Origin: a virus
Lineage: Duplodnaviria; Heunggongvirae; Uroviricota; Caudoviricetes
Length of the DNA stretch: 5,776 bases
Reading direction: 5' to 3' (one strand)
Virus record (IMG/VR): IMGVR_UViG_3300015183_000014
The translations under genes and the position numbers were made by a program. Position 1 is the first letter of the stretch. Each line of letters begins with the position of its first letter. Below the pieces are notes generated by a model. It did not search any database and was not told the origin of the DNA. It saw only the letters and a program-made list of their open reading frames with translations. Shown piece after piece: positions 954 to 5,710 of this stretch.

Positions 954-1367
954 TTATCTGCTTGCAGGGAAAACAGGCCAAATAATATCAGGTGCGGTGC
1001 TGGTATCTGTTGCCGTCACCTCGTCTATGTAATCCAGCACGGCGTTAAGTTGGGTGGTTTCTTCTTGCATCAGTTTTCGCCCGGCCTGCAGCTTTAACTG
1101 AATCACGCTGATTTTGGCCATTGCTGCGTCTATCAGCGACTGTTTTTTCTGTTCAGCATCAGCTACCAGTTCATCATGAGAACGTTTCGGAGTGGGCGGC
1201 GCAGTAAATACCCCGTCTGAATACGCCCAGCCGATTCCGGGCTGCTCACTGATATCAGAAATATTAATGAGCTGTAGATTATCCGGCACAGTGAATTCAG
1301 CCTCGCCATCCCAGGCAATTACATTCACAACCATCCCATTTTCAATAACTGCATATGACGCATTCAT
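954..1367 (-). CDS. G: Tail fibre assembly chaperone (P2 gpG / Tfa family), 137 aa
   Basis: The ORF track gives 954..1391, but the likely start is the internal ATG at 1367..1365 (MNASYAVIENG...). That ATG overlaps the H stop (TAATG) and has a GAGGAG Shine-Dalgarno about 8 nt upstream. The C-terminal motif ...LNAVLDYIDEVTATDTSTAPDIIWPVFPA is typical of Tfa-family chaperones. Position immediately after the fibre gene matches P2. Confidence 0.8.
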   Translation of the reverse strand: MNASYAVIENGMVVNVIAWDGEAEFTVPDNLQLINISDISEQPGIGWAYSDGVFTAPPTPKRSHDELVADAEQKKQSLIDAAMAKISVIQLKLQAGRKLMQEETTQLNAVLDYIDEVTATDTSTAPDIIWPVFPASR

Positions 1368-3286
1368 TATGCAAACTCCTCGATAATACAAATCCCTGCA
1401 GCGCCTTTCCCGCCCGTCATACTGGCTCCGCTATAACCGGCATCGTATGCACCACCACCGCCTGAACCATATGCCTTACCGCTAACACCACCGCCAGCGC
1501 CTGCGCGTCCACCGCCTCCCCAGTACGATGCACCGCCTTCACCGCTGACGCCGATATTCCCGGACTGACCGTCGCCTCCATTTCCACCAATGATGTTGAT
1601 ACCGCCAGTACTTGGCACACCGCCGTTACCACCGTTCGTGTTTGTGACTCCTGATTTTCCACCACCTTCACCACCAGGGGCTATTACCGATCCGAACGAG
1701 CTATCACCGCCCTTGAGGCCGTTCGTCGCACTAACGCCGCCGGCCCCACCTGCGCCGATAGTGACAGGATAACTATCCTTCGTCAGGATCAGCGTGGTGA
1801 TTACTGTCCCACCTGCCCCGCCGCCAGCACCGAAAAACGTTTCATTATTGGATATAGCCTTGCAGCCGCCCCCTCCGCCACCGCCGCCCGTTATTGTGAC
1901 CCTGATCCGTTTTGTTCCTGGCGTCGGGGTGTACGTACCTGATGAGGTGAAAACCCGGGTATTCAGCCAGCGTCCAACGTATCCACTTGCATCGCTCAGA
2001 CCAAGATATTGAATAACCGCCTGTGTGCTTGCTTTATCCAGAATATTCCGTCCAACGTTAGTCAGGGTTGTCAGGCTGGCTGTATCATTCCCCGTAAAAT
2101 ACGGAAGTTTGTCTGCCGCAGTGGCAAGGCCTGCCAGTGCGGTCAGTGTGGCGTCGGCAGGTTGTTTTCCATTGGCAAGGTCATATACAGCCTTCACGGC
2201 TTTTGGTGTGGCAGCCTGCGTTTCTGACGTGCTGTTAGTGGCGCTGCTGAGTTGCACGGTACCTTTTACCGTCAGTGAAGCTGCAGGCACATCCGTTATC
2301 TGGCTCCACGGGTGCGTGTGACTGACAGGTGCCTTACCTGCTGCAAGGTCATATGCCGCCTTCACTGCCTTTGGTGTGGCAGCCTGCGTTTCTGACGTGC
2401 TGTTAGTGGCGCTGCTGAGTTGCACGGTGCCTTTTACCGTCAGTGAAGCTGCAGGCACATCCGTTATCTGATTCCACGGGTGTGTGTGACTGACAGGTGC
2501 CTTACCTGCTGCAAGGTCATATACAGCCTTCACTGCCTTTGGAGTGGCAGCCTGCGTTTCTGATGTGCTGTTAGTGGCGCTGCTGAGTTGCACGGTGCCT
2601 TTTACCGTCAGCGAGGCTGCAGGTACACCTGTTATCTGATTCCACGGGTGCGTGTGACTGACAGGTGCCTTACCTGCTGCAAGGTCATATACAGCCTTCA
2701 CTGCCTTCGGTGTTGCGGCCAGTATTTCGGATTCACTGTTGGTCGCACTGCTTAACTGAGTAAAACCTTTTGCGGTCAGCGAGGCGTCCGGGTGACGTCG
2801 TGACTGTTCGTGCTCTGATATTTTGTCATCCACATACTTGCGAGTTGCCAGTACTACAGCAGGGTCGATTTTCAGGGTGATATTGTCCGTGCTGCTGGTA
2901 ATCAACACCATACGCACGGTCTGGGTACGCCCGCTGCCTTCAGCCAGTTGCGGCTTATAGCTTTCCGGGCAGTTGCCCACGGCAATCAATGCTCCGGACT
3001 CATCAAACAGGCCCACTTCACGTATCCACCAACCACCCTCGTTTTCAGGGATCACCTGTTCAGCAATAATCTGGCTGCTGTTCTGCGGGTCAATGTACAG
3101 CATATTCAGCGCAGCCCGGCGTTTCTCATTCACCAGCCCAGTCTGCTTTGCGTCCGGCGTTGGCAATACTCCGCCGCCATCGCCGACCGCCATATGGGTA
3201 ATTTTTAAAGGCACACCGAGCGCGGCGGCGCTGGCAAGTTTCGCCGCGCCAATATCCGTCAGCAGGGTATAAAATTTTGTGCTCAT
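1367..3286 (-). CDS. H: Tail fibre protein (P2 gpH-like N-terminus and shaft; glycine-rich C-terminal tip), 639 aa
   Basis: The N-terminus MSTKFYTLLTDIGAAKLASAA...HMAVGDGGG...ESYKPQLAEGSGRTQTVRMV...YVDDKISEHEQSRRHPDASLTAKGFTQLSSATNS resembles P2 gpH. The tail-fibre repeat motif QLSSATNSTSETQAATPKAVKA is present in four copies. P2-like sequence continues through ...DATLTALAGLATAADKLPYFTGND...QYLGL, then diverges into a Gly-rich C-terminus. Start ATG overlaps the I stop (ATGA). Confidence 0.9.
   Translation of the reverse strand: MSTKFYTLLTDIGAAKLASAAALGVPLKITHMAVGDGGGVLPTPDAKQTGLVNEKRRAALNMLYIDPQNSSQIIAEQVIPENEGGWWIREVGLFDESGALIAVGNCPESYKPQLAEGSGRTQTVRMVLITSSTDNITLKIDPAVVLATRKYVDDKISEHEQSRRHPDASLTAKGFTQLSSATNSESEILAATPKAVKAVYDLAAGKAPVSHTHPWNQITGVPAASLTVKGTVQLSSATNSTSETQAATPKAVKAVYDLAAGKAPVSHTHPWNQITDVPAASLTVKGTVQLSSATNSTSETQAATPKAVKAAYDLAAGKAPVSHTHPWSQITDVPAASLTVKGTVQLSSATNSTSETQAATPKAVKAVYDLANGKQPADATLTALAGLATAADKLPYFTGNDTASLTTLTNVGRNILDKASTQAVIQYLGLSDASGYVGRWLNTRVFTSSGTYTPTPGTKRIRVTITGGGGGGGGCKAISNNETFFGAGGGAGGTVITTLILTKDSYPVTIGAGGAGGVSATNGLKGGDSSFGSVIAPGGEGGGKSGVTNTNGGNGGVPSTGGINIIGGNGGDGQSGNIGVSGEGGASYWGGGGRAGAGGGVSGKAYGSGGGGAYDAGYSGASMTGGKGAAGICIIEEFA
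1370..1888 (-). other. Glycine-rich C-terminal domain of the tail fibre (about 173 aa, presumptive receptor-binding tip)
   Basis: It begins with an uninterrupted GGGGGGGG and continues with GAGGGAGG, GAGGAGG, GGNGG and GGGG motifs interspersed with short hydrophobic and polar stretches; I count about 65 Gly in 173 residues. It ends ...GKGAAGICIIEEFA. This is unlike the P2 gpH C-terminus as I recall it. Confidence 0.6.
2165..2779 (-). repeat. In-frame 168-bp tandem repeat array (about 3.6 units of 56 aa) inside H
   Basis: The plus-strand motif ggtcatat(a/g)c(a/c)gccttcac recurs at 2179, 2347, 2515 and 2683, an exact 168-bp period. Units at 2276-2443 and 2444-2611 differ at only a few positions. 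Each unit encodes LTVKGTVQLSSATNSTSETQAATPKAVKAVYDLAAGKAPVSHTHPWNQITDVPAAS. The first unit is slightly diverged and the fourth is truncated. Confidence 0.9.
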
Positions 3287-3888
3287 GGATTCACTCTCAT
3301 TGTGTCAATAACATGGACCGCCCCGCCTTCATGCGCGGTGCCACCGGAAATAATCGTTTCGTTGATATACGGATAGATCGTGATTTCTTCGCCAAGATAG
3401 CTGGCGGCCCCCACCCAATGCGGACCGCTGGTCTGCAGATTGATGGACATGCCGATCATGTGACGGCTACATGGTTTGGCATCGCTTATCAGCCGCTCAA
3501 GTTCCAGATAGGTATCTTCAGTGATGCCCTGGTCCTGCACGCCGATATCCAGGCGAAACGTGCCCGGTGTTTCTCCGGTCTGCCACCACTCAATAATGCG
3601 GATCAGGAATCCGAACGGTTCCACCACCCGCCGCACGGCACTGGTGGTTCCTTTATGCTGATGAATATAAAAAGCATCCTTCACCACCTGACGTTTGACG
3701 CTTTCAGTCCAGCCCTCATCCCAGCGATCCACAGAGAACGCCCAGGCGAGATAAGGCAGGAAGCTGACCGGACAGGTCGCCGGATTCCACAAGTCACGCA
3801 GCGGCACCTGCAGATCAGAAATCCCGCTGCAGGTTTGCGCCAGTCGGCGCTCCAGTGGTGTTGAACCCGGTGGCAGCAGACTATTCAT
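3283..3888 (-). CDS. I: Baseplate assembly protein (P2 gpI-like), 201 aa
   Basis: The translation MNSLLPPGSTPLERRLAQ...LWNPATCP...LPYLAWAFSVDRWDEGW...GTFRLDIGV...ERLISDAKPCSRH resembles P2 gpI. A GGAGGA Shine-Dalgarno lies about 6 nt upstream of the ATG at 3888. The start overlaps the J 3' end by 8 nt and the stop overlaps the H start. Confidence 0.85.
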   Translation of the reverse strand: MNSLLPPGSTPLERRLAQTCSGISDLQVPLRDLWNPATCPVSFLPYLAWAFSVDRWDEGWTESVKRQVVKDAFYIHQHKGTTSAVRRVVEPFGFLIRIIEWWQTGETPGTFRLDIGVQDQGITEDTYLELERLISDAKPCSRHMIGMSINLQTSGPHWVGAASYLGEEITIYPYINETIISGGTAHEGGAVHVIDTMRVNP

Positions 3889-4789
3889 CCGTTCCTCCGT
3901 TAGTTACGTTCCACTGCGTACATGATGCCGCCTGTGTTTTGTTCAGGACCACATCCGCCAGAGGAGAAGCCAGCTCCACACGCTGCACACCCTCAACATG
4001 CAGGGCGGCAAAGATGGCGCTACGGCGAATATCCCGACCAAGACGCGTCTGACTGGCGATGTACTTCTGCAGGCTGGCTTTTGCCGCTGCCATTACCGGC
4101 TCTGCTTCCGGCCCCGGATAGAGAAAAATGGTGGCTTCCACGCGATACGGGATGATTTCTGCGCTGCGAACCGTCAGACGGTCAGCCACCGGGCGGACGT
4201 TCTCACTGTTCAGAGCTTTTTCCACCACGTCCAGCAGGTCTTTTTCTGCAGTTCCATCGCCTTCGCGGCTAAGGACAGTCAGCACCACCTCTGCAGGTGC
4301 CGGGCTGGTTGCACTGGCATCCGCTACCCGACCGTCGGCGCTTCGGGCATGAAATTCATAAGCTGCAGTTGGCCCCGCAACAGAAAGCCCTTCAAAGGCT
4401 GCAGGCACACGCAGGCGTAACGCTTCATCGCTTTCCATCACAGCTGCAACGGGCGGCACAGCATCATTATCAGCAGGCGTCACCGTCAGGCGTGTCACGT
4501 TGTAGTTGGCAGCGAGCTGGTCAAGATCGCCGCCCATCGCGTAAGCCACCATCACCGCCTGCGCGGCTTCGTTAACGCGCTGGCGCAGAAGCAACTCACG
4601 GTAAGCGTTCTCCTGCAACAATTTAGTGACGGGTTCAGATTCCAGTTCCAGCGTGCGGATCACGGCTTCCTGCTCATCTTTCGGATGAAGCGCAACAAAT
4701 TGGGCCTTGCGTTCGGCAAGCAGCGTCTCAAAGTCCGGCACATCCACAATCTGCGGTGCAGGCAACTGCGAAAGGTCAATCACTGCCAT
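3881..4789 (-). CDS. J: Baseplate wedge protein (P2 gpJ-like, Baseplate_J / T4 gp6-like), 302 aa
   Basis: The ORF track gives 3881..4828, but the likely start is the ATG at 4789 (MAVIDLSQLPAPQIVDVPDFETLLAERKA...), preceded by an AGGAG Shine-Dalgarno. That gives 302 aa, the length I recall for P2 gpJ. Conserved stretches include YRELLLRQRVNEAA, GRSADGRVAD, RPVADRLTV and ALHVEGVQRVELA. It overlaps the W 3' end by 14 nt. Confidence 0.85.
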   Translation of the reverse strand: MAVIDLSQLPAPQIVDVPDFETLLAERKAQFVALHPKDEQEAVIRTLELESEPVTKLLQENAYRELLLRQRVNEAAQAVMVAYAMGGDLDQLAANYNVTRLTVTPADNDAVPPVAAVMESDEALRLRVPAAFEGLSVAGPTAAYEFHARSADGRVADASATSPAPAEVVLTVLSREGDGTAEKDLLDVVEKALNSENVRPVADRLTVRSAEIIPYRVEATIFLYPGPEAEPVMAAAKASLQKYIASQTRLGRDIRRSAIFAALHVEGVQRVELASPLADVVLNKTQAASCTQWNVTNGGTDE

Positions 4790-5135
4790 TCTCTGCTCCT
4801 GTTGATACGGAAAGTGACACATGCACACCGTTATTCCGCCGCCCGGTCAGCTCCACCACCATAGAACCGTCAAAGTTGCTGTTGATGGTGATGGAATCCA
4901 GCGTCAGCCGTGGCTCCCAGCGACTCAGCGCCACATACACTGCCGACATGACCTGCAGGCGTAATGCCGGATTTTGTGGCTGATCTATTAAAACCGACAG
5001 GAGGGAACCATATTCCCGGCGGGCAATGCGGCTACCCTGCGGTGTCAGCAGAATGTCCCGCACCGACTGGCGCAGATGGTCAATATCAGTAATGGCTTTA
5101 CCGCTGGTATTGTTCATCCCGCTATAAAGCGTCAT
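4776..5135 (-). CDS. W: Baseplate protein (P2 gpW-like, gp25/GPW family), 119 aa
   Basis: The translation MTLYSGMNNTSGKAITDIDHLRQSVRDILLTPQGSRIARREYGSLLSVLIDQPQNPALRLQ...WEPRLTL resembles P2 gpW and gp25-like baseplate proteins. Start ATG overlaps the V stop (ATGA). Confidence 0.85.
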   Translation of the reverse strand: MTLYSGMNNTSGKAITDIDHLRQSVRDILLTPQGSRIARREYGSLLSVLIDQPQNPALRLQVMSAVYVALSRWEPRLTLDSITINSNFDGSMVVELTGRRNNGVHVSLSVSTGAENGSD

Positions 5136-5710
5136 ACCGGGCCTCCGGTTGTATCGCCGCCTTTCAGGACGCCGGTATGCTGATGCGCATCAACCACGAT
5201 CCCGTTAGAACTCATCGCTCCGCCGCCCTGAGTAACGCCACCATTGACCACCACTTCGCTGTTAATACGCGTGCACTCAGCCTCCAGCACAAACTCACTG
5301 GTTTTCAGGGTGATGTTATCGGCAGCCTCAATGACCATGGATTTGATGCCCCTGACATACCAGCGCCCGGTGGCAGGTTCGTATTCAAACCAGCCACCGT
5401 CAGGATGTTCTGTCACGCAGGCGTCCGCCGACGTCGACGGTGGTGCGAACTGATTCGAATAGACAGCGGGCAGCGCAAAGGCAGTTTCCAGATTGCCGCC
5501 CAGACTCAGCAGCACCACCTGCTCACCTTCCGATGGTCGCCACCATGTCCGGGCATTACCCGCGCGCAGCGTCAGCCAACTGATCCAGTTAGTTTCAAGG
5601 TCGCCCGTTTTCACCCGGCAAAGCCAATTCTCCCGGTCCACTTCGGTGACTACACCAGTGCGGATCAGGTTGGTGATAAGGCGCATGATTTCGGTTAATT
5701 GTGCGTTCAT
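5132..5710 (-). CDS. V: Baseplate central spike protein (P2 gpV-like), 192 aa
   Basis: The translation MNAQLTEIMRLITNLIRTGVVTEVDRENWLCRVKTGDLETNWISWLTLRAGNARTWWRPSEGEQV...GGAMSSNGIVVDAHQHTGVLKGGDTTGGPV resembles P2 gpV, including a C-terminal His-containing apex motif. It is the first gene of the operon, directly downstream of the dyad at 5757-5774. Confidence 0.85.
   Translation of the reverse strand: MNAQLTEIMRLITNLIRTGVVTEVDRENWLCRVKTGDLETNWISWLTLRAGNARTWWRPSEGEQVVLLSLGGNLETAFALPAVYSNQFAPPSTSADACVTEHPDGGWFEYEPATGRWYVRGIKSMVIEAADNITLKTSEFVLEAECTRINSEVVVNGGVTQGGGAMSSNGIVVDAHQHTGVLKGGDTTGGPV

What the first reader, a model, noticed from the sequence alone, without database searches (positions are those of the whole stretch)
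2165..2779. Near-identical 168-bp in-frame tandem repeats in the fibre shaft
There are four units, the last truncated, at an exact 168-bp period. Adjacent units differ by only a handful of substitutions, which suggests recent duplication or ongoing homogenisation. Because the unit is a multiple of 3, gain or loss of a unit by unequal recombination would keep the frame and change fibre length in 56-aa steps. This also makes the region a likely site for short-read assembly collapse.
Basis: seen in the sequence. Interest (0 to 1): 0.5.

Follow-up and report, generated by a model that had tools for sequence, protein, structure and literature searches.

The report
Copy-number-variable tail fibre shaft repeats

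Summary
The repeat is real. Tandem Repeats Finder reports period 168, no indels and 94% matches at 2175-2720. In gene register there are four units at 2111-2782 on the minus strand, and the last is homologous only over its first ~104 nt.

The repeat lies in gene H (1367-3286, 639 aa) of a P2-like prophage. The window is 100% identical to E. coli 47-1826, where the prophage sits next to ssrA. Each unit is one Pfam Phage_fiber_2 motif plus a spacer with an invariant His-Thr-His, a probable iron site.

"Near-identical" holds for U2/U3 (8/168 differences) and the shared part of U4. U1 differs from U2 at 31/168 positions.

The length-variation idea is supported:
- Orthologues with the same N-terminal and glycine-rich C-terminal domains are 583, 639, 695 and 751 aa.
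- Complete genomes contain 3, 4 and 5 units. Six units occur only in draft assemblies.
- Alleles with identical flanking protein sequence differ in unit number.
- Exact duplicate units and an A/B hybrid unit point to unequal recombination.
- Other genera carry a single motif at this position.
- Hundreds of 225-580-bp orphan contigs made only of such repeats show that short-read assemblies break here.

This is a new example of a known kind of variation. Any functional effect of fibre length is untested.

The parts
1367..3286 (-). Gene H, the tail fibre protein (639 aa) of a P2-like prophage
   Evidence: ORF. Pfam finds Phage_tail_fib, four Phage_fiber_2 stretches and Gly_rich_2. Annotated as 'tail fiber protein' WP_134391605.1 in the 100% identical E. 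coli 47-1826 record.
2783..3286 (-). N-terminal domain for baseplate attachment (collar), aa 1-168, immediately upstream of the array
   Evidence: PF12571 over aa 1-150, E=1.7e-64. Conserved at 60-96% identity in Xenorhabdus, Photorhabdus, Serratia, Citrobacter and others.
2615..2782 (-). Repeat unit U1 (aa 169-224), the most divergent unit; 31/168 nt differ from U2
   Evidence: This is the position of the single motif found in other genera.
2447..2614 (-). Repeat unit U2 (aa 225-280)
   Evidence: Differs from U3 at 8/168 nt (2 aa).
2279..2446 (-). Repeat unit U3 (aa 281-336). The exact same 168-nt sequence occurs in three other complete genomes.
   Evidence: unit type u3 is shared exactly by the window, PS3T (twice, in tandem), MS 85-1 and KMi012.
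2175..2278 (-). Homologous part of the truncated terminal unit U4 (aa 337-371). It has a Phage_fiber_2 motif but no HxH spacer.
   Evidence: One search shows divergence from U2/U3 starting at about unit position 104. One search puts the Tandem Repeats Finder array start at 2175. One search shows 'ATL' in place of 'HTH' in all 110 terminal units.
2648..2656 (-). His-Thr-His (HxH) codons of U1, aa 211-213; a probable metal (Fe) site in the trimer
   Evidence: Position. Invariant in 110/110 first units. The role of HxH in fibres is taken from PMC6116203 and is an inference here.
2480..2488 (-). HxH codons of U2, aa 267-269
   Evidence: HTH in 312/312 internal units.
2312..2320 (-). HxH codons of U3, aa 323-325
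2090..2173 (-). Conserved junction after the array, NGKQPADATLTALAGLATAADKLPYFTG (aa 372-399), also present in an unrelated fibre class
   Evidence: the same segment follows the 7- and 8-unit arrays of P0001 and P0032; the allele in L003 is identical to the window up to about gene nt 1165 and then diverges, which indicates module exchange downstream of the array.
1379..1945 (-). Glycine-rich C-terminal domain (aa 448-636), the presumed receptor-binding tip
   Evidence: PF21722 Gly_rich_2, E=5e-14. Differences between alleles concentrate at gene nt ~1430-1790. Weak full-length similarity to the Pam3 fibre structure 7YFW, E about 1.
954..1367 (-). Tail fibre assembly (chaperone) gene, overlapping the H stop codon
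   Evidence: PF02413 Caudo_TAP, E=3e-21; annotation.
3283..3888 (-). Baseplate gene I, upstream of H
   Evidence: PF09684 Tail_P2_I, E=7e-55.

Best explanation
The 168-bp repeats encode a 56-residue shaft module. Each module is one Phage_fiber_2 motif (SLTxKGxVQLSSATNSxSExxAATPKAVKAxYDLA) followed by a spacer with an invariant His-Thr-His. The array lies in the trimeric tail fibre gpH of a P2-like E. coli prophage, between the baseplate-binding N-terminal domain and the glycine-rich receptor-binding tip.

Neighbouring units share 92-100% DNA identity over 168 bp, a multiple of three. Misaligned homologous recombination can therefore add or delete whole units without breaking the frame. This could be unequal crossover or gene conversion between sister or co-resident copies, or possibly replication slippage. 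The prophage population accordingly holds alleles with 3, 4, 5 and provisionally 6 units, and the window carries the commonest 4-unit form.

Shown here:
- the repeat and its frame;
- the copy-number polymorphism among otherwise orthologous genes;
- exact duplicates and a hybrid junction unit;
- derivation from a single-motif ancestor.

Inferred:
- the recombination mechanism;
- that each unit lengthens the shaft and adds one His6-metal clamp per trimer;
- that length matters for adsorption or host range.
For: - Repeat anatomy.
- Domain identity and gene context.
- Copy number in 56-aa steps: E. coli HS is 583 aa. Database homologues are 583, 639, 695 and 751 aa with 3 to 6 motifs all 56 aa apart. 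The 60 best complete genomes give 4 with 3 units, 32 with 4 units (30 of 1920 bp plus one frameshifted and one with an insertion), 24 with 5 units (23 of 2088 bp plus one of 2085 bp) and none with 6.
- Recent events: protein flanks are identical (0/436 aa) between alleles with 3 vs 5, 4 vs 5 and 5 vs 6 units. Loci L004 (6 units) and L006 (5 units) differ at only 4 nt in 7.2 kb of flank. L004 reads 1-A-B-A-B-T with exact duplicates. In L006 the fourth unit carries A states at positions 20-91 and the B state at position 152, which is what one unequal crossover would produce.
- The complete genome PS3T carries an exact u3-u3 tandem duplicate.
- Concerted evolution: the 8-unit array of L008 has U2=U3=U4 and U6=U7 exactly, yet differs by about 17% from the window's units.
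- The variants A/V31 and N/S48 occur in all four combinations.
- A single motif at aa ~169-205 is found in 34 H-like fibres of other genera.
- HTH is invariant in 422/422 full units. HxH coordinates Fe in T4 gp37, R-pyocin fibres and P2 gpV (PMC6116203).
- The same paper states that repeats allow fibre length to be adjusted.
Against: - No direct evidence that unit number changes within a strain. Four independent HS assemblies all give 1752 bp.
- The 6-unit allele, and with it the cleanest 6-to-5 comparison, comes only from draft assemblies. An exact A-B-A-B array is hard to count with short reads.
- Among the complete genomes fetched, alleles with different unit numbers also differ somewhat in their flanks, for example 3 and 27 nt between PS3T and MS 85-1.
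- The physical length added per unit and the metal binding could not be tested. The AlphaFold2 monomer model was unusable, with mean pLDDT 38.8.
- No phenotype data link fibre length to host range.
Confidence: 0.8

Rival explanations
1. The array mainly serves as a shared block of homology for swapping modules. Identical or similar units in different prophages let recombination join one N-terminal (baseplate) domain to different C-terminal receptor-binding tips. On this view, change in unit number is a neutral by-product.
For: - Locus L003 has the same N-terminal domain and the same four units as the window (2 nt differences in 504 nt; U1-U3 identical) but a different tip with a 132-aa insertion. 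The breakpoint lies just after the array.
- The same 56-aa unit and the same post-array junction occur in a fibre with a different N-terminus and a Collar-domain tip next to an invertase (L008). They also occur in P1-like and Mu-like phages.
- E. coli genomes hold up to 9-10 matching places.
Against: - Units of the unrelated fibre classes are only about 82% identical in DNA to the window's units, which is a poor substrate for RecA.
- The observed breakpoint in L003 lies in or after the conserved junction, not inside the array.
- This view does not explain why unit number varies between alleles with identical flanks.
- It is compatible with the main explanation rather than exclusive of it.
Confidence: 0.3
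2. The differences in unit number are old, fixed, lineage-specific states of a rigid structural shaft. The high identity between units reflects strong purifying selection on a structural motif, not recent duplication or homogenisation.
For: - Unit number is stable in repeated assemblies of one strain (HS four times; the JNQH497/498 pair; the CP092449/CP092452 pair).
- Only 3 to 6 units are seen in this fibre class.
- Most differences between U2 and U3 are synonymous (5 of 8 nt), consistent with protein-level constraint.
Against: - Purifying selection on the protein does not preserve synonymous sites, yet units are identical at all 168 nt within arrays.
- Alleles with identical flanks differ in unit number in three separate backgrounds.
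- A hybrid unit sits at the predicted junction.
- Units are more alike within an array than between arrays.
Confidence: 0.1
3. The apparent variation in unit number is an artefact of collapsed or expanded repeats in assemblies.
For: - Short-read assemblies clearly struggle here. About 70 of 97 clusters matching the unit lie on contigs of 225-580 bp made only of repeats, and some wrap around the repeat.
- The 6-unit allele is seen only in drafts.
Against: - States with 3, 4 and 5 units are all present in complete circular chromosomes.
- The HS 3-unit state is reproduced in four independent assemblies.
- The 5-unit gene of the draft locus L006 is identical to that of the complete MS 85-1 genome.
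- The window's 4-unit protein is found on 260 contigs.
Confidence: 0.05

Closest known systems
Phage_fiber_2 (Pfam PF03406) 'phage tail fibre repeat', first recognised in lambda Stf and present in P2 gpH and Mu gpS (PDB 5YVQ, 8JU3, 9KI1)
   Same: All four units match the Pfam model (243.7 bits in total). Mu gpS residues 107-152 align to the unit (E=1e-5). The motif is found in tail fibres of many enterobacterial phages (PMC3368898).
   Different: Classical P2 gpH and lambda-type Stf space the motifs more closely, with about 38-44 aa 'GKYTAQDATT' spacers, and lack the HxH spacer. Here the motif is fused to a His-Thr-His spacer to give a 56-aa unit amplified at near-identity. [quoted passage not shown]
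R-type pyocin and tailocin fibres (P2-like), built from repeated shaft and knob motifs
   Same: These are P2-type contractile-tail fibres. PMC6116203 states that a repeating structure allows the length of the fibre to be adjusted, and it describes a buried Fe bound by an HxH motif in the shaft. In Pseudomonas syringae tailocins, whole repeats or knobs are deleted between alleles, giving shorter fibres (PMC12208367).
   Different: The pyocin repeats are short helix-plus-turn motifs visible only in the structure. The P. syringae repeats are larger shaft-plus-two-knob units. Neither is the Phage_fiber_2/HxH 56-aa unit, and neither shows near-identical DNA repeats.
In-frame 1.8-kb tandem duplications in the tail fibre gene of Enterococcus phage EfV12-phi1 during experimental coevolution
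   Same: In-frame tandem amplification of an internal fibre segment upstream of the receptor-binding region, with variable copy number in the population resolved by PCR ladders and long reads (PMC6365445).
   Different: That case was observed arising in real time under selection, with a unit ten times longer, in a lytic Gram-positive phage. Here the variation is inferred from natural alleles of a temperate E. coli prophage, and no selective agent is known.
HxH iron sites of T4 gp37, T4 gp12 and the P2 gpV spike
   Same: The His-x-His motif recurs along a trimeric fibre. It is invariant in every full unit here.
   Different: Metal binding is not demonstrated here. In T4 gp37 the HxH motifs lie in the distal needle, not in a tandemly amplified proximal module.
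EHEC prophage collagen-like side-tail-fibre proteins (EPclA-D)
   Same: These prophage fibre proteins contain Phage_fiber_2 repeats, and their lengths differ between copies by whole multiples of the repeat unit (PMC3368898).
   Different: In that case the variable parts are the Gly-X-Y collagen repeats and heptad coiled-coil repeats, not the Phage_fiber_2 unit itself.

Membership tests
Phage_fiber_2 (PF03406) repeat | Match to the Pfam HMM above the gathering score | tested here: met
   243.7 bits against a cut-off of 22, with 4 matched stretches. An HMM built here from the units finds four domains at aa 169-208, 225-264, 281-320 and 337-376.
P2 gpH-type tail fibre | N-terminal Phage_tail_fib (PF12571) domain | tested here: met
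   aa 1-150, full-length profile match, E=1.7e-64.
P2 gpH-type tail fibre | Gene order V-W-J-I-H-tail fibre assembly-sheath within a P2-like late operon | tested here: met
   Pfam hits for each neighbouring gene. Annotation of the 100% identical prophage in E. coli 47-1826 runs from ogr, D, U and T through to the portal gene.
P2 gpH-type tail fibre | Homotrimeric fibre folded with the help of the downstream Tfa chaperone | not testable with these tools
   Only the presence of a Caudo_TAP gene overlapping the H stop codon is shown. The structure tool predicts monomers only, and its model was unusable.
In-frame variable-number tandem repeat within a gene | Head-to-tail units whose length is a multiple of 3, without indels | tested here: met
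   Period 168, 0% indels; 56-codon register.
In-frame variable-number tandem repeat within a gene | Different unit numbers among otherwise orthologous alleles | tested here: met
   3, 4 and 5 units in complete genomes and 6 in drafts. Alleles with identical flanks differ in number.
In-frame variable-number tandem repeat within a gene | Length heterogeneity within a clonal population | not testable with these tools
   No read-level data were available. Indirectly, four assemblies of strain HS all show 1752 bp.
HxH metal-binding site of trimeric phage fibres | Conserved His-x-His motif | tested here: met
   HTH in 110/110 first units and 312/312 internal units; absent from the terminal truncated unit.
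HxH metal-binding site of trimeric phage fibres | Six histidines from three chains coordinating a buried Fe ion | not testable with these tools
   This needs a trimer structure or metal analysis. The AlphaFold2 monomer model had pLDDT 23-35 over the array.
Invertible host-range segment (Gin/Cin/Hin type) | Site-specific invertase gene and alternative fibre C-termini flanked by inverted repeats | tested here: not met
   The window has no invertase ORF, and H is followed directly by the Tfa and sheath genes. Only two weak long-range inverted repeats were found. In contrast, L008 has a resolvase and an inverted Collar-domain ORF.
Diversity-generating retroelement target | Reverse transcriptase plus a template-repeat/variable-repeat pair differing at adenines | tested here: not met
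   The window has no reverse transcriptase ORF and no TR/VR-like repeat pair. Differences between units are not adenine-specific.
Simple-sequence contingency locus (on/off phase variation) | A short repeat whose change in number shifts the reading frame | tested here: not met
   The unit is 168 bp (56 codons), so every observed change in number keeps the frame.

The most novel reading that the evidence does not exclude
The array could act as an evolvable ruler. Recombination would add or remove metal-clamped 56-residue modules, and selection would set the reach of the fibre to match the depth of the host's O-antigen or capsule layer. Unit number would then be a fast-evolving determinant of adsorption and host range, separate from the receptor-binding tip. 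The bounded range of 3 to 6 units, centred on 4-5, would reflect that selection.
Probability: 0.2. Interest if true: 0.55.

Novelty: new member of a known kind. Interest (0 to 1): 0.3.

Why it matters
The locus gives a clean natural series of 3, 4, 5 and perhaps 6 identical shaft modules on otherwise identical fibres. That series could be used to ask how fibre length affects adsorption and host range, and to engineer P2-type phages or tailocins of defined reach.

It also has practical consequences:
- These repeats break short-read assemblies, so unit counts taken from draft genomes should not be trusted.
- They litter public databases with orphan 'partial tail fiber' contigs.

It does not reveal a new mechanism. 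Repeat-mediated length change in fibrous phage proteins is an accepted idea.

Tried and rejected
- AlphaFold2 monomer model of the whole protein, using a 37-sequence alignment: mean pLDDT 38.8, and 23-35 over the array. It was unusable, so no fold search was run.
- PDB sequence search: only the single motif of Mu gpS matched the array. The glycine-rich tip gave only a borderline match to the Pam3 fibre, E about 1.
- Searching the protein database with two units, to find the largest arrays in nature, returned only short fragment proteins on tiny contigs. This did not answer the question but was informative about assembly breakage.
- The phage-isolate collection holds no full-length relative of this H gene. 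No record covers 80% or more of it, and only the first ~460 nt match Klebsiella, Escherichia and Salmonella P2-like phages.
- Literature searches found no paper describing this particular polymorphism. One search failed because a term was too short.
- A diversity-generating retroelement, an invertible segment and frameshift phase variation were considered and rejected (see the membership tests).
- An attempt to derive the 6-unit allele from the 5-unit allele by one single-unit-offset crossover does not reproduce A-B-A-B. The reverse direction, 6 to 5, does (reasoned).
Full report
**1. The observation**

Tandem Repeats Finder reports a single array in the window at 2175-2720. It has period 168, 3.2 copies, 94% matches, no indels and a score of 966. 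The repeat finder independently finds a 20-nt marker at 2262, 2430, 2598 and 2766, spaced exactly 168 nt apart, and 259-nt copies at 92% and 86% identity.

The array lies inside the largest ORF of the window, 1367-3286 on the minus strand, which encodes 639 aa. In the gene's register the units are as follows.

| Unit | Residues | Window coordinates |
|---|---|---|
| U1 | aa 169-224 | 2615-2782 |
| U2 | aa 225-280 | 2447-2614 |
| U3 | aa 281-336 | 2279-2446 |
| U4 | aa 337-392 | 2111-2278 |

- U2 and U3 differ at 8 of 168 nt, giving 2 amino-acid changes.
- U4 matches them closely over its first ~104 nt (2175-2278) and is then unrelated, so it is truncated.
- U1 differs from U2 at 31 of 168 nt, mostly in its first 70 nt.

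The only caveat is that 'near-identical' does not apply to the first unit.

**2. What the region is**

Pfam assigns the protein three elements:
- an N-terminal Phage_tail_fib domain (aa 1-150, E=1.7e-64);
- four Phage_fiber_2 repeats (243.7 bits in total);
- a C-terminal Gly_rich_2 domain (aa 448-636).

The neighbouring genes are baseplate V, W, J and I upstream and a Caudo_TAP tail fibre assembly gene downstream.

The H gene is 100% identical to sequence in two complete E. coli chromosomes. In strain 47-1826 it belongs to a P2-like prophage next to ssrA. That prophage has the full late gene set: ogr, D, U, tape measure, tube, sheath, Tfa, H, I, J, W, V, lysis genes, capsid and portal. So this is gene H, the tail fibre, and the array follows directly after the baseplate-binding domain. 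In that sense it is the proximal shaft.

Each full unit consists of the Phage_fiber_2 motif plus a spacer, AGKAPVSHTHPWNQITxVPAA. The truncated terminal unit has the motif but not the spacer. It runs into a conserved junction, NGKQPADATLTALAGLATAADKLPYFTG.

**3. Copy number in relatives**

- E. coli HS has the same gene with one unit fewer: 1752 bp, 583 aa and 3 motifs.
- The 120 best database homologues are 583, 639, 695 or 751 aa, with 3, 4, 5 or 6 motifs always 56 aa apart.
- A second search used the 6-unit gene as query. Gene lengths in the 60 best complete genomes are listed below.

| Gene length | Units | Complete genomes |
|---|---|---|
| 1752 bp | 3 | 4 |
| 1920 bp | 4 | 30 |
| 1922 bp (frameshifted) | 4 | 1 |
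| 2316 bp (132-aa insertion after the array) | 4 | 1 |
| 2088 bp | 5 | 23 |
| 2085 bp | 5 | 1 |
| 2256 bp | 6 | 0 |

The 6-unit allele was found only in draft assemblies and is therefore provisional.

**4. Evidence for recent events and homogenisation**

*Identical flanks with different unit numbers.* At the protein level, alleles with zero differences in the 436 residues outside the array differ in unit number. This is seen for 3 vs 5, 4 vs 5 and 5 vs 6 units, in three separate backgrounds.

*The 6-unit and 5-unit pair.*
- L004 (6 units) and L006 (5 units) differ at only 4 nt in 7.2 kb of flanking DNA.
- L004 reads 1-A-B-A-B-T, with U2=U4 and U3=U5 exactly. L006 reads 1-A-B-A'-T.
- A and B differ at six positions. 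A' has the A state at positions 20-91 and the B state at position 152.
- That is the hybrid expected if one unequal crossover between U4 and U5 removed a unit (reasoned).
- The 5-unit gene of L006 is identical to that of the complete genome MS 85-1.

*Shared and duplicated units.*
- The complete genome PS3T carries an exact tandem duplicate, u3-u3.
- The window's U3 sequence recurs exactly in PS3T, MS 85-1 and KMi012.

*Shuffling among unit variants.* Among 312 internal units from 110 alleles there are 26 protein variants. The two commonest dimorphic sites, A/V31 and N/S48, occur in all four combinations.

*Concerted evolution.* An unrelated fibre in L008 has a different N-terminus, a Collar-domain tip and an invertase nearby. 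It carries eight units with U2=U3=U4 and U6=U7 exactly. Those units differ from the window's by about 17%.

*Ancestral state.* In species-representative genomes of Xenorhabdus, Photorhabdus, Serratia, Pectobacterium and others, 34 fibres with the same N-terminal domain have exactly one motif, at aa ~169-205. The E. coli array is therefore a derived amplification.

**5. Stability**

Four independent assemblies of strain HS all give 1752 bp. Sister isolates listed share their length. The array is therefore polymorphic in the population but not hypervariable within a lineage. Read-level heterogeneity could not be examined.

**6. Assembly fragility**

A protein search with two units returned 97 clusters, and about 70 of them lie on contigs of 225-580 bp. 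They are annotated 'tail fiber protein, partial' and have up to 408 member sequences. Several consist of the window's own type of unit (P0121, P0134, P0138). Others wrap around the repeat.

It also means that unit counts from drafts need caution.

**7. Likely mechanism and function**

Shown:
- an in-frame module that varies in number;
- molecular traces of unequal exchange.

Inferred:
- RecA-type unequal crossover or gene conversion as the mechanism. Replication slippage cannot be excluded.
- A proportional change in shaft length.
- A metal clamp in each full unit.

The His-Thr-His motif is invariant in 422 of 422 full units. In T4 gp37, R-pyocin fibres and P2 gpV, HxH motifs from three chains bind a buried Fe ion (PMC6116203; PMC8174754). 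The same pyocin paper notes that repeats allow the length of a fibre to be adjusted.

Precedents exist for change in whole fibre repeats:
- P. syringae tailocins (PMC12208367);
- experimentally evolved Enterococcus phage EfV12-phi1 (PMC6365445);
- EHEC collagen-like fibre proteins (PMC3368898).

Whether length matters for adsorption is unknown. The AlphaFold2 monomer model was too poor to give a rise per unit, and the only solved relative of the motif is Mu gpS residues 107-152.

**8. Rival explanations**

- *Homology block for exchanging tips.* This has some support and is compatible with the main explanation. L003 keeps the same N-terminus and array but has a different tip, with the breakpoint just after the array. 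It does not explain changes in number between alleles with identical flanks.
- *Ancient fixed states kept similar by protein-level selection.* This is contradicted by units that are identical at every synonymous site.
- *Assembly artefact.* This is excluded for 3, 4 and 5 units by complete genomes, but not for 6 units.

**9. Novelty and score**

The Pfam repeat, HxH sites, mosaic fibres and repeat-based length adjustment are all known. I found no paper describing this specific polymorphism of 3 to 6 units. It is best filed as a new member of a known kind. Interest is 0.3: a tidy, well-supported example and a useful natural allelic series, but not surprising to a specialist.

Noticed in passing
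window 1379-1945 (minus strand, aa 448-636 of H): The fibre tip is a glycine-rich domain (PF21722) with runs such as GGGGGGGG separated by variable segments. Differences between alleles concentrate at window ~1498-1858. It has a borderline full-length alignment to the cyanophage Pam3 fibre structure (7YFW/7YPX, E about 1). It is probably the receptor-binding part.
   Followed up: partly
L003:3001-5316 (E. coli 2024CK-00475; also three other complete genomes with a 2316-bp gene): This allele has the same N-terminal domain and the same four units as the window. It carries an extra 132-residue segment inserted between the post-array junction and the glycine-rich tip, and its tip is divergent.
   Followed up: partly
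L089:3221-6739 (P1-like Escherichia phage vB_EcoM-813R1): The S tail fibre region holds a long composite array in which the 168-bp unit alternates with a 132-bp unit, giving a period of 300 with 3.9 copies. Periods of 299 and 467 are also reported. The gene is annotated as four 'fragment' CDSs, which suggests frameshifts from sequencing errors or decay inside the repeats.
   Followed up: partly
proteins P0121-P0217, on contigs of 225-580 bp: Public draft assemblies of E. coli, Salmonella and relatives contain hundreds of orphan contigs that consist only of tail-fibre repeat units. They are annotated as partial tail fibre proteins.
   Followed up: partly
NZ_CP034404.1 156978-158899 (E. coli CRE10), row H39: The orthologous gene is 1922 bp and is annotated as two CDSs, a tail fibre protein plus a glycine-rich domain-containing protein. 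This looks like a frameshifted 4-unit allele.
   Followed up: no
NZ_CP062853.1 versus NZ_CP062851.1 (sister O9:H10 isolates), rows H81 and H84; protein P0036: Two closely related isolates have 2088-bp and 2085-bp genes. The shorter one has lost one codon just before the HTH of the third unit (GKGHSHTHPW in place of GKAPVSHTHPW).
   Followed up: no
L007 (GCA_041227725.1): Here the identical 5-unit H gene sits in a degraded prophage. The baseplate genes W, J and I, the Tfa gene and the sheath gene are missing around it, and ogr follows shortly after.
   Followed up: no
L092 and L094, locus coordinates 5172-5489: In two complete genomes carrying 5-unit alleles, the downstream tail fibre assembly gene is annotated as an incomplete pseudogene. 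The same region is called as a 137-aa Caudo_TAP gene in the draft locus L006.
   Followed up: no
window 4789-4828 (minus strand): The mechanical ORF for baseplate J starts at a GTG at 4828 (315 aa). RefSeq annotates a 302-aa product that starts 39 nt downstream. Both versions overlap the end of gene W.
   Followed up: no
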